Assembly (NCBI GenBank): GCA_039621445.1
Contig: CP154954.1
Span: 38,487,703-38,551,702 of the forward strand
Source of the DNA: Euglena gracilis
Taxonomy: Eukaryota
Direction of reading: 5' to 3'
Length of the DNA: 64,000 nucleotides
Of the stretch, positions 47,219 to 57,300 are shown piece by piece. Under the pieces are notes generated by a model. The model saw only the letters and a program-made list of their open reading frames with translations. It searched no databases and had not been told where the DNA came from. The translations under genes and the position numbers were made by a program. The stretch's first letter is position 1, and each line of letters opens with the position of its first letter.

Positions 47219-47337
47219 ACCCAGCCGGGACCCACCCCCGGGTCGGTCCGGCCCCAAACCCACCCACTGGGGGGGGGGGGTCTGAGTTTAAAAGAAGCGG
47301 CCCGCCGGACCCTCCCCCCAGGAGAAAACCCCCGGTC

Positions 47338-47602
47338 CAGGCTTCTTTTTAAGACCCCCGGGGGGGGGGGAGGGGGGGTCACCCCCACCCACCCAGGGTG
47401 GCGCGGCACCCCCCCGGGGGGGGGGACCCCCCACAAAATCGGGCCCGCTAAAGGCAATTTTCAAAAAATTTCGGCTCTTCGCGCCGAAAAGGTATACCCA
47501 GCGCCTTCGGCGCGGGACCCCCCCCCGGGGGGGGGGGGGGTCCGGCCGGGACCCACCCACCCACCCCCCGGTGGGGGGGCTTCTGGCTTAAAAAGAAGCC
47601 TG
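47338..47602. mobile_element. hAT-like MITE
   Basis: 16-bp TIR CAGGCTTCTTTTTAAG / CTTAAAAAGAAGCCTG; perfect 8-bp TSD CCCCGGTC. Confidence 0.9.
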
Positions 47603-54300: not shown

Positions 54301-57300
54301 TGAAATTTAATGCATCATGCATGAAGATGATTGATAATTTATCATTCATATATTGGATGAGGAAACATTTCAAGAACATCTAAACATATTACATACACTA
54401 AAAAAACAATACATGCCATAATTTTTTTAAAAAACCCGCCAGCCTTTAACTACCCCCCCCCTGGGGGAGTTACGCATTAAAATCCCTCCAGCAGTTCCTA
54501 TATACCTCGTTTGACTGCCCCCCCCCCAAGCAGTTAAATGAGGGGGGTTCGGACCCCTCTGCGTTTAAGAGGTGTGCCCCGACCCAAAGTTGACTGGGCT
54601 TTCACCATGTCCACGGGAGGTGTCCCGGTCAAAAGTGGAGTACAGTGCGCCTAGGAATAGGATTGGGGTTTGGGGTAATTGAAATGGATGGGGTTAGGGT
54701 CAGGGTTTGGAGTTGGGTGGGGTTTGGTTTATAGGCCTGTTGACCTCAATTTCAGCTAAAATTGGGCCTAATTCAGGCCCGAATTCAGGCCCGAATTTGG
54801 CCTTACCTCCTGACTCTGACCTGGCCCTAATCCCTTTCTTAACGCTAATCATATCACTAACTCGACTCCTTAAAAAAACAGGAAAAAATCGAAAAATATC
54901 ATCAAAACTCCCCTTGGCTGGCGATTAAGAGAATGACTCCCCCCCCCATTATTCAACCATTGGGCCCTCACCCCCCGGGGGGGCCCAGTAGTTAAAGGCT
55001 GCAGAAAAAACATATCCAGCCATATGCAGGTGACAATATTGAGGTGAAGAGGGATTTTATAACAATAGGAAAAAATAATGACTTCAGGAGTCAGAATTTG
55101 TGGCAATTCAAAACGAGCTGAATAAAAACAAAACGAACAAAAACAAAAAAAATACATATAAATACATGTGAATCATATGGTTATGCAACAATGGCACACG
55201 TCAATGTAAGATAACGAGTGGATGAGCTCCTTTGAGACGTACTCTGCGATTGGGGATTCTGCGCGAATCTGGGAGTGGGGTGAGGGTAAGAGAGATCAGA
55301 ATTTTCTGACAATTGGATCAAATGATCAAGAAGGGAGGTAGATTGTGGTGAGAACGATGCCCCACAAAGGCTTTCAATGAAATTGCACTTTGCACACGGT
55401 TCCGCTTCACCGGGTGTTGCGCAATTTGGCGGGGGGACTTGGGCATCTCCCGGCCTGCCCCTCCACTTCCCAATTGATGGGCCGGGGACGTCTCCCGCTC
55501 TTGCAGGGCCAGCGTCGGGGCCGGGCAGGGAGGGGGGCACCTTCGCATCGTAGACGGCGACCTTGCGTTCAAATCCCACACAGTATGTCTTCGCACTCAG
55601 CGAGTACCGGCAGTAGAGCGGCTCACCTGCCAGGCGAGGCATCGAGGCACTGAGGCACCGAGGTACGGTAGGGCCCTGGTCTTCGTCAGGGCAAACCCAC
55701 ACGGACCATGCCAGTGTCGCCCCCCTGGGGCTGCCTAACAGCGCTGGGGGCTCACACAATTTGGCTGCTGGATGGAAAAAAGGCTGCTGGCTGACCCCCC
55801 CCCCCTTGGGATCCTGGGATGGAGCTCGGCCCGACCCAGGGTTGAACCGGGTTTCAAAAAATCAAAAGTGCAAAAAATATACAAAATTACTACGGCGGAC
55901 AAAAATGATTTGGGGTTCACACCAAACTCACACGTTTTTCCTTCTCATAGAATCCCCCAGGGTTCGATATAAGGACAGGTGGGGGGGGGGGGGGTGTCCG
56001 GACCCCCCCGTGGGGGCTGGGGGGGGGGGGGGGGGGGGGGACACCCCCCCCCCACCTAAACAGGTGCGCGGTCAGGGTGGCCGAATTTTCGGCCCGGCGC
56101 GAAGCGCCGGGCCGAAAAATTTTGACCCCCCAAAACGACCAAAAGTGCCATTTTGGGCACTTTTTGGGCAAAAATGTGCCAAAAATGCAAAAAATTTTCG
56201 GCGCGAAGCGCCGGAGGAAAAAATTGACCCTTTTGGGGGGGGGTCAATTTTTGCCCCCGAGGGTCGGTCCGGACCCCCCTTGCAGGTGGGGGGGGGGGTG
56301 GTCCGGACCCCCCCCTGCGGGCCAGGAGGGGGGGGGGGGGGGGGGGGACACCCCCCCACCTAAACCATGTACGCCCTCCTTATATCGAACCCTGGAATCC
56401 CCCCCCCCGGTCAGAGACCATTTCTTTGGGCTTGGGGGCAGAGGGGCAGAGGGACAGAGGGGCGGGTGGGGGATGGCAGGGGCGACGCACTGGCGAACTT
56501 GCGGGAGTCGACGGTGCGCTGGCTGCCGAAGTTGGTGACCTTGAGGAGGTGGTCCGCCCCGACGGACAGGCCGAGCAGCGGGTCCCGCGGGTAGAGGTCG
56601 CAGTCGTTGACCGCCCCGCTGGCAGGAGCAACGGCAAAGCGTCCGCACCACGCTGGCACAGAGATGGTGGGCACAGCCGAGGATGGACAGACGGGCGAAT
56701 GAAGAGCGGTTGCACTTGGGCAGCGGGGAACGCGGCAGCATGATCTAACGTGCTGGGAAAGGTTTGTTGCATCCGTTGTGTCTTTGTTTCGAATCATAAC
56801 TTCAGTTCACTCCACTCTGCTGTTGCAAATGGTTCTCCCATACGCCTGACTGGGGCTGTCCTGTTGGCCTTTCTTTTCCCCTTGGTCAATTCTCCTTCGC
56901 GGTCGTCAGGTTGCGACACCAGGGGCAGACTTGTGCACTTGCATCGTGGCGAGCTCGTCCAGGCGCTTCGGGGTGCACTTGCTGAAGATGACGACGCCGC
57001 TGCGGTCCCCGCTGGCCAGGTGCGTGGACCCCGAGAAGCGCATGCACGTGATGGTCGCTGCGAGAGGATGGGCACCCGACCGGCACACGCCCACTGGGAC
57101 GTGCCAGGCTGTTTGGCCCATGGAATGGAACGGTGGTCAATGGTACGGTTTGGGGGGGGGGACCTTTGTGCTGGGCGAGGAAGCCGAACCCGCGGAAGAG
57201 TTTGGCGTGGTAGACCCTGCAGGAGGTGAGTGGCAGAGGGTGTACCGTCGTAAACAAATGCTCCTCGACCCTTTTGTAGGGATTTTGTAGGGATGATTGA

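What the first reader, a model, noticed from the sequence alone, without database searches (positions are those of the whole stretch)
47330..56402. hAT-like MITEs have exactly the geometry of a nonconventional intron: 3+5 nt = 8-bp TSD
Seen: three MITEs (47338-47602, 53132-53600, 55958-56394) start CAG, end CTG and carry 8-bp TSDs. Seen: in-frame non-GT-AG introns here have 3 nt before the paired stem (usually CAG) and 5 nt after it (usually CTG). Established: hAT elements make 8-bp TSDs; euglenid nonconventional introns pair +4..+6 with -8..-6. Inference: if such a MITE lands in an exon, cutting 3 nt outside the left TIR and 5 nt outside the right removes the element plus exactly one TSD-worth of sequence, restoring the mRNA in either orientation. 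This would be a transposon-intron system in which insertions are silent. A TE origin of these introns has been suggested in general terms; I cannot verify whether this arithmetic is already described.
Basis: partly seen in the sequence, partly recalled or inferred. Interest (0 to 1): 0.9.

Follow-up and report, generated by a model that had tools for sequence, protein, structure and literature searches.

The report
Euglena transposons spliced out as introns

Summary
The three cited MITEs are real: CAG...CTG inverted ends, with 8-bp duplications matching 8/8, 7/8 and 8/8. None of them is an intron. Two lie inside ordinary GT-AG introns of an expressed WD40 gene and one lies downstream of it.

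The inference still holds elsewhere in the window. A blind scan found seven such elements. Two of them (3732-4788 and 4855-4979) interrupt one coding exon of a ZFAND1-like gene on the minus strand. An independent E. gracilis transcript protein (EukProt EG_transcript_17535, 310 aa) maps at 100% identity across both. What is skipped is element + 8 nt, in the register N3-CAG...CTG-N5|purine.

Of 20 transcript-defined introns in the window, 16 are GT-AG and 4 are not. The predicted 8-nt repeat scores 7, 7, 6 and 4 of 8 in the four, against at most 5 of 8 in the GT-AG set.

The literature already holds the MITE-origin hypothesis (2014), an eight-nucleotide repeat at a newly gained intron (2016) and the 3/5 spacer code (2025). 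My eight searches found no paper linking these to an 8-bp target duplication.

Still open: the hAT assignment (no transposase seen), the exact cut sites, and direct RNA reads over these two introns.

The parts
47338..47602 (.). MITE 1 (265 bp). Lies about 1.5-2 kb beyond the mapped 3' exon of the WD40 gene. Not an intron.
   Evidence: TIR 16/16 and TSD CCCCGGTC 8/8. No exon seen nearby.
53132..53600 (.). MITE 2 (469 bp), nested inside GT-AG intron 53011-53658 of the WD40 gene.
   Evidence: TIR 11/12 and TSD 7/8. Intron borders from RNA contig X16 record 9. DNA-run summed word depth is about 770,000 here against about 45 for single-copy pieces.
55958..56394 (.). MITE 3 (437 bp), nested inside GT-AG intron 55624-56487 of the WD40 gene.
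   Evidence: TIR 18/18 and TSD GAATCCCC 8/8. Intron borders. Summed word depth about 1.5 million in DNA run X1.
58411..58521 (.). Small MITE (111 bp), upstream of the second WD40 exon, in what is inferred to be the first intron.
   Evidence: TIR 11/12 and TSD GCTCCCAG 8/8. Position relative to exons.
39250..40628 (.). 1379-bp element whose terminal 57 nt are 88% identical to the terminus of intron element 3732-4788. Genic context unknown.
   Evidence: TIR 11/12 and TSD GTGGGGGG 8/8. Terminal similarity.
3727..4791 (-). Nonconventional intron of 1065 nt = element 3732-4788 (1057 bp) + 3 nt + 5 nt. TSD copies at 3724-3731 and 4789-4796.
   Evidence: P0001 residues 166|167 join across it. N3 GGG, CAG...CTG, N5 CTGCT, next base A, stem 11, 8-nt repeat 7/8. 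Found blind as a TIR/TSD element. An internal 480 nt is 84% identical to 22977-23437 and 46739-47194.
4850..4982 (-). Nonconventional intron of 133 nt = element 4855-4979 (125 bp) + 3 nt + 5 nt. TSD copies at 4847-4854 and 4980-4987. It splits the exon that completes the second AN1 zinc finger.
   Evidence: P0001 residues 146|147 join across it. N3 GGC, CAG...CTG, N5 CCGGA, next base G, stem 8, 8-nt repeat 7/8. The terminal stem is present in both the MFE and centroid folds. Found blind.
1377..1504 (-). Nonconventional intron of 128 nt with exact N3-CAG...CTG-N5|G geometry and no clear TSD (4/8).
   Evidence: P0001 residues 203|204 join across it. No in-frame GT/GC-AG solution exists.
6745..8232 (-). 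Non-GT-AG intron of 1483 nt that does not fit the 3/5 CAG/CTG code. CAG is at +4..+6 in register 8231-6749, but CTT is at -8..-6. The 8-nt repeat is 6/8 in that register.
144..8754 (-). ZFAND1-like gene (two AN1 zinc fingers plus a ZFAND1-type ubiquitin-like domain). 11 exons and 10 introns: 6 GT-AG and 4 non-GT-AG.
   Evidence: P0001 (EukProt EP00667_Euglena_gracilis_P016725, EG_transcript_17535) maps at 100% identity over all 310 residues. Pfam zf-AN1 and a weak UBL_ZFAND1 match on single exons.
49300..57768 (-). WD40-repeat gene. The PAK1IP1-like label is recalled, not tested. 10 RNA-defined introns, all GT-AG. The low end is approximate (only 49485-49514 of the 3' exon was matched), and a first exon is inferred near 58710-58790.
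   Evidence: RNA contig X16 record 9 (1503 nt) laid as exon pieces. Two small exons were placed by exact length. The 3' exon was placed by the loose-end match. All 10 introns are GT-AG within their slide range.
62002..62575 (.). Different TIR element with GG termini (GGCAGCAAGATTT) and a 7/8 8-bp TSD. Possibly Merlin-type.
   Evidence: Merlin in E. gracilis with 8-bp TSDs and terminal GG: PMC8101967 (passages).

Best explanation
The window is Euglena gracilis nuclear DNA. It carries many non-autonomous TIR transposons (MITEs) whose ends read CAG(G)...(C)CTG and which duplicate 8 bp of target on insertion, a hAT-like signature. Most copies here lie in non-coding DNA, including the three cited.

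When such an element lies in an exon, the transcript has the structure that the published euglenid nonconventional-splicing code requires: 3 spacer nt, CAG, a terminal stem formed by the TIRs, CTG, 5 spacer nt, then a purine. Cutting at those two points removes the element plus 3 + 5 = 8 nt. That is exactly one copy of the TSD, so the original exon sequence and reading frame are restored. Because the TIRs are self-complementary, either orientation of the element gives the same result.

Shown here:
- the TIR/TSD anatomy and its statistical support;
- two TSD-flanked elements that interrupt one coding exon of the ZFAND1-like gene and are absent from an independent E. gracilis transcript-derived protein;
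- a skipped length of element + 8 in both;
- the 3/5 register and the purine rule satisfied on the transcribed strand.

Taken from the literature: cutting occurs at exactly 3 and 5 nt, and the stem is required (knock-in experiments).

Inferred: removal happens at the RNA level in the same strain; the elements are hAT-derived; and this route produced a large share of euglenid nonconventional introns.
For: 1. Blind TIR+TSD scans found seven CAG...CTG elements with 8-bp TSDs of at least 7/8. The signal exists only in the exact register: 9 of 1288 in register against 5 of 10304 across shifted controls.

2. P0001 was found with one AN1 exon as query and is 100% identical. It maps without mismatch onto 11 minus-strand exons.

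3. Introns 4982-4850 and 4791-3727 equal elements 4855-4979 and 3732-4788 plus 8 nt. In the 3/5 register they have stems of 8 and 11, CAG/CTG, next bases G and A, and the predicted 8-nt repeat at 7/8 in each. On the opposite strand both would be followed by a pyrimidine.

4. The exon they split completes the AN1 motif that the previous exon begins...FCVPHRLQ|EDHDC.

5. One-sided Mann-Whitney p = 0.004.

6. For the seven elements, 3/5 excision reproduces the empty-site sequence in 13 of 14 element-orientation cases.

7. The intron element shares sequence with non-intron copies in the window: 84% over 480 nt at two loci, and 88% over its terminal 57 nt with 39250-40628.

8. Literature.
- PMC12501133 (abstract and sections 5, 8, 10, 12 read): the code is N3CDG/CH'GN5-6|R, the 5' spacer is strictly 3 nt, the 3' spacer is 5 nt, and synthetic 50-bp introns splice in E. 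gracilis.
- PMC4770533 (passages): a recently gained gapC intron in one E. agilis strain has eight-nucleotide direct repeats at its junctions.
- PMC11170887 (sections 6, 10): the consensus is CCAGG at +3..+7 and CCTG at -9..-6, matching the CAGG...CCTG ends of 6 of the 7 elements here.
Against: - The three cited MITEs are not introns. Two sit inside GT-AG introns and one lies outside the gene.
- There are no RNA reads over the two MITE-introns. My single read-laying run covered 51400-63780 only, so the evidence is a protein from another data set.
- Both alternative mRNAs allowed by the 7/8 TSDs encode the same residues. Neither the cut site nor which TSD copy is retained can be read off.
- A GC-AG reading also falls within the slide range of both introns: 4981-4849 and 4789-3725.
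- One of the 4 non-GT-AG introns (8232..8227 to 6750..6745) does not fit 3/5 with CAG/CTG. Another (1504-1377) has only a 4/8 repeat.
- No transposase was found.
- The 133-nt intron's overall fold is no better than shuffles (z = -0.75). Only the terminal stem is notable.
- The sample is small: 20 introns in 2 genes.
Confidence: 0.8

Rival explanations
1. Insertion polymorphism rather than splicing. The EukProt transcript came from an allele or strain whose ZFAND1-like exon lacks the two MITEs, so the intact protein reflects an empty site and not RNA-level removal.
For: The transcript protein and the window come from different data sets. RNA and DNA runs show allele-like differences from the window elsewhere, for example about half of reads at 57667, 57714 and 57736. 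Protein-level evidence cannot separate an empty site from precise splicing.
Against: The same transcript also skips 1504-1377 and 8232-6745, which have no clean TSD and can only be introns. Both MITE-introns satisfy every element of the experimentally defined code, including the purine rule on the transcribed strand only (PMC12501133). Each TSD has already acquired one mismatch, so the insertions are not brand new.
Confidence: 0.07
2. The two MITE-bounded introns are removed by the ordinary spliceosome as GC-AG introns. The TIR/TSD geometry is then irrelevant to their splicing.
For: GC...AG borders lie within the slide range of both: 4981-4849 and 4789-3725. GC-AG introns exist in E. gracilis, 659 of 28,337 (PMC11170887 section 6).
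Against: Their 5' ends (GCCAGG, GCAGGC) do not resemble the GTGYGY-like donors of the 16 GT-AG introns here. With 9-11 slide positions, a chance GC..AG is easy to obtain. Both have strong terminal stems and CAG/CTG in the 3/5 register. GT-AG introns usually lack such pairing: 35% have zero pairing energy, against 3-4% of nonconventional introns (PMC11170887 section 10).
Confidence: 0.06
3. Coincidence of numbers. Nonconventional introns arise by another route, such as double-strand-break repair as proposed in 2016. On this reading, 3 + 5 = 8 has nothing to do with the transposon's TSD, and the two cases here are MITEs that happened to land in or become introns.
For: Milanowski et al. 2016 read the 8-nt repeat as a break-repair footprint (PMC4770533). 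One intron here has a 4/8 repeat and one does not fit the code. The 3' spacer tolerates 5-6 nt (PMC12501133).
Against: The intron borders coincide with the TIR/TSD borders of elements found without reference to genes. Chance of at least 7/8 in 2 of 3 is about 7e-7 from the control rate. The same terminal motif CAGG...CCTG marks the free MITEs here and the published intron consensus. Removing them restores an exon that completes a zinc-finger motif.
Confidence: 0.07
4. The elements are real and are spliced as described, but they do not belong to the hAT superfamily. They could be MITEs of Merlin or another family that makes 8-bp TSDs.
For: Merlin transposons with 8-bp TSDs are documented in E. 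gracilis (PMC8101967). One GG-terminal element with a 7/8 TSD lies in this window at 62002-62575. No hAT transposase was seen. The hAT target consensus, as recalled, is not met.
Against: Merlin TIRs end in GG. Moving the element boundary by 2 nt to expose GG destroys the TSD: no pair reached at least 7/8 in either 2-nt-shifted control. Termini such as CAGGG match the hAT pattern YARNG as I recall it.
Confidence: 0.3

Closest known systems
Euglenid nonconventional introns: code N3CDG/CH'GN5-6|R (Nomura et al. 2025, PMC12501133); MITE-origin hypothesis (Milanowski et al. 2014, PMC3935182; review PMC11282704)
   Same: Three of the four non-GT-AG introns here have CAG at +4..+6, CTG at -8..-6, a terminal stem and a purine as the first exon base. 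The literature already calls the ends TIRs and the junction repeats TSD-like. It also reports an eight-nucleotide repeat at a newly gained intron (PMC4770533).
   Different: In the passages and sections I read, no paper states that the two spacers sum to the TSD length, names a transposon superfamily, or shows free-standing genomic MITEs with the same termini and 8-bp TSDs next to intron copies. The 2016 paper attributes the 8-nt repeat to break repair.
Introner elements of Micromonas, Aureococcus, dinoflagellates and others (as summarised in PMC11282704)
   Same: These are DNA transposons with TIRs and TSDs that create introns on insertion. The TSD enters into the splice geometry, so the exon is restored.
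   Different: Introners are removed by the spliceosome, using one splice site carried by the element and one co-opted from the TSD or exon. Here the borders are not GT-AG. Removal follows a structure-based code whose machinery is unknown and is reported to yield circular RNA (PMC11282704, passages).
hAT-superfamily MITEs
   Same: An 8-bp TSD, short TIRs starting with CAG, non-coding, and at very high copy number.
   Different: No transposase partner was identified. The target-site pattern is not the one I recall for hAT. The internal sequence is rich in G and C homopolymer runs.
Non-canonical MITE-derived introns of the tunicate Fritillaria borealis (as summarised in PMC11282704)
   Same: Abundant non-GT-AG introns with TIRs and TSDs at species-specific positions.
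   Different: In the tunicate they are excised by a modified spliceosome with AG-AC or AG-AT borders, not by a CAG/CTG stem rule.

Membership tests
hAT-superfamily non-autonomous element (MITE) | 8-bp target site duplication | tested here: met
   Seven CAG...CTG elements have 8-bp flanking repeats of at least 7/8. The signal is present only in the exact register.
hAT-superfamily non-autonomous element (MITE) | Short TIRs beginning YARNG (pattern recalled, not from a call) | tested here: inconclusive
   7 of 7 begin CAG and 6 of 7 begin CAGG. The fifth base is G in 2 of 7 (CAGGG) and C in 5 of 7.
hAT-superfamily non-autonomous element (MITE) | Target preference nTnnnnAn (pattern recalled) | tested here: not met
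   T at TSD position 2 in 1 of 7 and A at position 7 in 2 of 7, read on the + strand. The sample is small and strand choice is arbitrary.
hAT-superfamily non-autonomous element (MITE) | An autonomous partner encoding a hAT transposase with matching TIRs | not testable with these tools
   No whole genome is held. Ten long ORFs of the window gave no Pfam hit.
Euglenid nonconventional intron | Absent from mature mRNA and lacking GT/GC-AG borders | tested here: met
   4 of 10 introns of the ZFAND1-like gene, by exact mapping of P0001. Two of them also admit a chance GC-AG reading within their slide range.
Euglenid nonconventional intron | CAG at +4..+6 and CTG at -8..-6 (3-nt and 5-nt spacers) | tested here: met
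   3 of 4 non-GT-AG introns. The fourth has CAG but CTT.
Euglenid nonconventional intron | Base pairing that continues inward from CAG/CTG and brings the ends together | tested here: met
   Contiguous stems of 8, 11 and 7 bp. The terminal stem is present in the MFE and centroid of the 133-nt intron.
Euglenid nonconventional intron | Purine as the first base of the downstream exon | tested here: met
   G, A and G for the three code-compliant introns.
Euglenid nonconventional intron | Excised as full-length circular RNA, after the conventional introns | not testable with these tools
The property itself is taken from PMC11282704.
Introner element (transposon-derived spliceosomal intron) | The intron is a TIR/TSD element with similar copies elsewhere in the genome | tested here: met
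   Two introns are TIR/TSD elements. Element 3732-4788 shares 84% identity over 480 nt with two other loci, and its terminus with 39250-40628.
Introner element (transposon-derived spliceosomal intron) | Removed by the spliceosome through GT/GC-AG sites carried by the element or co-opted from the TSD | tested here: inconclusive
   There are no GT-AG borders. A GC-AG reading is possible within the slide range of both, but its donors are unlike those of the 16 GT-AG introns here.
Merlin-superfamily MITE | TIRs with terminal GG and an 8-9 bp TSD (PMC8101967) | tested here: not met
   For the CAG-type elements, shifting a boundary by 2 nt removes the TSD signal: 0 pairs at >=7/8. The separate element 62002-62575 does meet this feature.

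The most novel reading that the evidence does not exclude
Euglenid nonconventional splicing is the RNA-level counterpart of one transposon family's insertion chemistry. The machinery cuts 3 nt and 5 nt outside the TIR stem because that sum equals the family's 8-bp TSD, so every exon insertion with a purine at TSD position 6 is erased from the mRNA and is close to neutral. On this reading, most of the roughly 16,000 (E. gracilis) to 466,000 (E. agilis) nonconventional introns are fossil or live MITE insertions. The two co-dominant splicing systems of Euglena would then record a transposon-host accommodation. The unknown nuclease/ligase might even have been recruited for, or from, the transposon.
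Probability: 0.4. Interest if true: 0.85.

Novelty: new variant of a known kind. Interest (0 to 1): 0.72.

Why it matters
The origin and removal mechanism of euglenid nonconventional introns have been open questions since the 1990s. These introns make up more than half of all introns in Euglena.

The window supplies what the literature I read lacks. One class of CAG...CTG, 8-bp-TSD elements is seen both as ordinary MITEs in non-coding DNA and as precisely skipped interruptions of a coding exon.

The 3 + 5 = 8 arithmetic explains why the experimentally defined spacers have those lengths. It reinterprets the published eight-nucleotide repeat at a newly gained intron as a TSD. It also turns the MITE-origin hypothesis into quantitative genome-wide predictions: a register-specific 8-nt repeat that decays with age, introns clustering with intergenic MITE families, and a purine bias at TSD position 6 on the sense strand.

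It suggests how a genome can tolerate very large numbers of exon insertions. It also points to a search for the matching transposase and for the splicing enzyme.

Tried and rejected
No genome-wide test or transposase search was possible.
- The look-up of sequencing runs on 47001-57000: no RNA holder listed. RNA runs came only by species label.
Its joint table was swamped by joints between the G-rich parts of the MITEs (15 of 796 rows shown), so exon joints were read from one RNA contig instead.
- Pfam on 10 long ORFs gave nothing.
- Homologue searches with an alpha-kinase exon and a WW-domain exon found no E. gracilis transcript protein. The representative search gave only paralogues (best long hit 64% identical). 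These could not decide between an in-frame nonconventional candidate 15634-14316 (7-bp stem) and GT-AG alternatives. That intron is left unresolved and is not counted.
- A window-wide scan for stem-bounded introns with coding flanks had no discriminating power. It gave 24 hits for 3/5 spacing against 23-34 for 13 other spacings, mostly GC-rich repeats.
- Aligning intron 1377-1504 with intron 4850-4982 showed shared ends and composition but no convincing homology.
- The perfect 14-bp CAG-type TIR pair at 54440-55001 has no TSD (1/8) and was not counted.
- Literature searches that found no statement of the 3+5=8 / hAT link.
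Full report
**1. The observation**

The three cited elements are as described.
- 47338-47602 has a perfect 16-bp TIR (CAGGCTTCTTTTTAAG) and an exact 8-bp duplication, CCCCGGTC.
- 53132-53600 has an 11/12 TIR and the duplication ACTGAGGG/ACTGGGGG (7/8).
- 55958-56394 has a perfect 18-bp TIR and an exact duplication, GAATCCCC.

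A scan for any TIR (at least 10/12) with an 8-bp flanking repeat (at most 1 mismatch) returned 117 rows, mostly homopolymer or microsatellite artefacts. Beyond the three cited, it also returned four more CAG...CTG elements: 3732-4788, 4855-4979, 39250-40628 and 58411-58521. One GG-terminal element appeared at 62002-62575.

Two controls show the signal is not chance.
- Among 201 CAG...CTG pairs with TIR >=10/12, flank identity is 8/8 in 4, 7/8 in 3, 6/8 in 1 and <=5/8 in 193, with a mode of 2-3.
- Among 1288 looser pairs, 9 reach >=7/8 in the exact register. Each of eight shifted registers gave 0-3, or 5 of 10304 in all.

**2. Context of the cited MITEs**

No genome is held for this window. Public runs of the same organism were found.

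One RNA contig (X16 record 9, 1503 nt) lies on the minus strand as eight exon pieces. Two further small exons of 52 and 70 nt exactly fill its gaps. Its 3' continuation matches 49485-49514.

The product is a WD40-repeat protein. All 10 introns so defined are GT-AG within their slide range, with C-rich tracts.
- MITE 53132-53600 lies inside GT-AG intron 53011-53658.
- MITE 55958-56394 lies inside GT-AG intron 55624-56487.
- Element 58411-58521 lies upstream of the second exon.
- MITE 47338-47602 lies beyond the gene's 3' end.

So none of the cited MITEs is an intron or an exon insertion. The summed word depth of the DNA run over the two intronic MITEs is about 0.8-1.5 million, against about 45 on single-copy pieces. 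The tool warns that this is not a copy number, but it does show that sequence of these elements is very abundant.

**3. Finding other genes**

A codon model trained on the WD40 exons, followed by Pfam on single exons, revealed minus-strand exons of three further genes:
- an alpha-kinase gene (13459-15741);
- a WW-domain gene (about 45140-45334);
- an AN1 zinc-finger gene with a weak ZFAND1-type ubiquitin-like domain match (144-8314).

A homologue search with the AN1 exon 6371-6538 returned one protein, P0001. It is 310 aa, 100% identical over the aligned part, and labelled EukProt EP00667_Euglena_gracilis_P016725 / EG_transcript_17535. This identifies the organism as Euglena gracilis and supplies an independent, transcript-derived exon chain.

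P0001 maps onto the window's minus strand with no mismatch as 11 exons between 8754 and 144.

**4. The decisive result**

I enumerated every cut pair that reproduces P0001 exactly.

Six introns are GT-AG: 8652-8321, 6699-6539, 6394-5035, 3662-1555, 1311-554 and 465-313.

Four introns are not GT-AG.
- **Intron 4982-4850 (133 nt).** It equals element 4855-4979 plus 3 nt upstream and 5 nt downstream. It reads N3 GGC, CAG...CTG with an 8-bp stem, N5 CCGGA, then G.
- **Intron 4791-3727 (1065 nt).** It equals element 3732-4788 plus 3 and 5 nt. It reads N3 GGG, CAG...CTG with an 11-bp stem, N5 CTGCT, then A.
- **Intron 1504-1377 (128 nt).** It has the same geometry (TCC-CAG...CTG-GCCCC|G, 7-bp stem) but only a 4/8 repeat. 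No GT/GC-AG solution exists for it.
- **Intron 8232..8227 to 6750..6745 (1483 nt).** It does not satisfy the rule. Its repeat in that register is 6/8.

In the first two introns, the predicted repeat (last 5 exon nt + first 3 intron nt, against last 5 intron nt + first 3 exon nt) is 7/8. These are the same two elements the blind scan had listed as TIR/TSD transposons.

Both lie in one 81-nt exon. Its first part completes the AN1 motif begun by the preceding exon (...FCVPHRLQ|EDHDC). In P0001 it reads on without interruption (RRARR|LQAQAKK and GLLG|AQRF).

**5.

In the 3/5 register, the 8-nt repeat scores 7, 7, 6 and 4 for the four non-GT-AG introns. The 16 GT-AG introns of the two genes score a mean of 3.3 and a maximum of 5. 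One-sided Mann-Whitney p = 0.004.

Using the shifted-register rate of 5/10304 for at least 7/8, two or more such scores among three code-compliant introns would arise by chance about 7e-7 of the time.

For the seven TSD-flanked elements, cutting 3 nt outside one end and 5 nt outside the other reproduces the empty-site sequence in 13 of 14 element-orientation cases. The one exception reflects a TSD mismatch.

On the transcribed strand, both exonic elements are followed by a purine. On the other strand both would be followed by a pyrimidine.

The intron element 3732-4788 is built of dispersed repeat sequence. It is 84% identical over about 480 nt to 22977-23437 and 46739-47194. Its terminal 57 nt are 88% identical to the terminus of 39250-40628.

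The 133-nt intron folds with its ends paired in both the MFE and the centroid structure. Its overall energy is not better than shuffles (z = -0.75).

**6. How it most likely works**

*Shown.* CAG...CTG elements with 8-bp TSDs exist both in non-coding DNA and inside a coding exon. The exonic ones are absent from a transcript-derived protein. The amount skipped is element + 8.

*From the literature.*
- In E. gracilis knock-ins, nonconventional splicing needs 3 nt before CAG (strict), 5 nt after CTG (5-6 tolerated), pairing inward of the motifs and a purine at the exon start. Fully synthetic 50-bp sequences built to this rule are spliced (PMC12501133; abstract and sections 5, 8, 10, 12 read).
- The E. 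gracilis consensus is CCAGG at +3..+7 and CCTG at -9..-6, and 16,151 of 28,337 introns are nonconventional (PMC11170887, sections 6 and 10).

*Inference.* A MITE's TIRs provide the stem and the CAG/CTG, and its TSD provides the two spacers. Since 3 + 5 = 8, excision deletes exactly one TSD copy and restores the exon in either orientation.

*Not shown.*
- The exact cut points. The TSD makes 9-11 positions equivalent.
- That removal occurs at the RNA level in the strain that carries the insertions.
- The enzyme.
- The superfamily.

**7. Comparison with what is known**

- The MITE-origin hypothesis dates from Milanowski et al. 2014 (PMC3935182, passages).
- A 2024 review by the same group labels CAG/CTG as TIRs and the junction repeats as TSD-like (PMC11282704, passages).
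- Nomura et al. 2025 suspect MITE-like sources.
- Milanowski et al. 2016 report that a gapC intron present in only one E. agilis strain has eight-nucleotide direct repeats at its junctions, longer than in the other introns they analysed. They attribute this to double-strand-break repair (PMC4770533, passages). That observation is what the TSD reading predicts for a fresh insertion.
- Merlin transposons with 8-bp TSDs and GG termini are documented in E. gracilis (PMC8101967, passages). The CAG-type elements here are not of that form, because shifting a boundary by 2 nt abolishes the TSD. Element 62002-62575 may be of that form.

In eight full-text searches I found no paper stating that the spacers sum to the TSD length, assigning a superfamily, or showing free genomic MITEs beside intron copies. 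Subscription-only literature was not searched.

**8. Membership**

As nonconventional introns, three of the four non-GT-AG introns meet every testable defining feature.

As hAT MITEs, the elements meet the TSD length. They meet the TIR start only partly. They do not show the target pattern I recall for hAT, and no transposase could be sought. 'hAT-like' therefore describes the geometry and is not an established membership.

As introners, they share the transposon-makes-intron logic but not spliceosomal removal.

**9. Verdict**

The idea extends a published hypothesis rather than founding a new category. Its value is a mechanistic explanation for the 3/5 code and a set of sharp, cheap, genome-wide tests.

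The main residual risks are the lack of RNA reads over the two junctions, the small sample (2 genes, 20 introns), one non-conforming intron, and the unverified superfamily.

Noticed in passing
window 6745-8232 (-): This non-GT-AG intron of the ZFAND1-like gene does not fit the 3/5 CAG/CTG code. A CAGGGG...CTTCCTG stem is flanked by a 4-nt direct repeat, CGGC. In the register set by the 5' CAG, the 8-nt repeat is 6/8, and the 3' motif reads CTT instead of CTG. It may be a decayed insertion or may follow a different rule.
   Followed up: partly
window 62002-62575: A TIR element with GG termini (GGCAGCAAGATTT) and a 7/8 8-bp TSD (TTTCATTC/TTCCATTC). This is the form reported for Merlin transposons in E. 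gracilis. Its sequence is also highly abundant in the DNA run.
   Followed up: partly
window 13459-16390 (-): An alpha-kinase gene with Pfam Alpha_kinase matches on three exons. One intron (14230-13636) is GT-AG. Another has an in-frame nonconventional candidate, 15634-14316 (AGC-CAG...CTG-GGGCC|G, 7-bp stem), that could not be distinguished from GT-AG alternatives without a transcript.
   Followed up: partly
window 54440-55001: A perfect 14-bp CAG-type inverted repeat (CAGCCTTTAACTAC), 562 bp end to end, inside a GT-AG intron of the WD40 gene, with no flanking 8-bp repeat (1/8).
   Followed up: no
window 22977-23437 and 46739-47194: Two copies (about 84% identity) of the internal part of intron element 3732-4788, containing 43-bp and 17-bp tandem units. 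The second copy lies just upstream of MITE 47338-47602.
   Followed up: partly
window 50540-51380: Long (TATG)n and (TATC)n microsatellites (about 112 and 87 units) lie inside the 2826-nt last intron of the WD40 gene. (TG)n tracts lie at 48884-49367 next to its 3' exon.
   Followed up: no
window 55571, 56571, 57667, 57714, 57736: About half of the RNA reads differ from the window at these exonic positions. The DNA contigs of run X1 carry the other base at four of the five sites (56571, 57667, 57714, 57736) but not at 55571. These look like allelic or strain differences rather than editing. X1 also has a 10-nt insertion behind 57969.
   Followed up: no
window 53218-53239, 56040, 56325-56347, 58904: Hundreds of RNA reads end in long loose G runs at the G/C homopolymer tracts of the MITEs. 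Most laid RNA reads (about 91%) run on into unlike sequence. This is probably multi-copy elements plus poly-G read artefacts, and it swamped the joint table.
   Followed up: no
window 45140-45334 (-): An exon-like segment with a weak WW-domain match (E = 0.001, below Pfam's cut-off). No E. gracilis transcript protein was found for it.
   Followed up: partly
window 34829-36166: A block of tandem repeats: a GC-rich 8/28/36-nt array, then 163-nt units, then a 19-nt unit repeated 23 times. The GC-rich array gives spuriously high coding scores.
   Followed up: no
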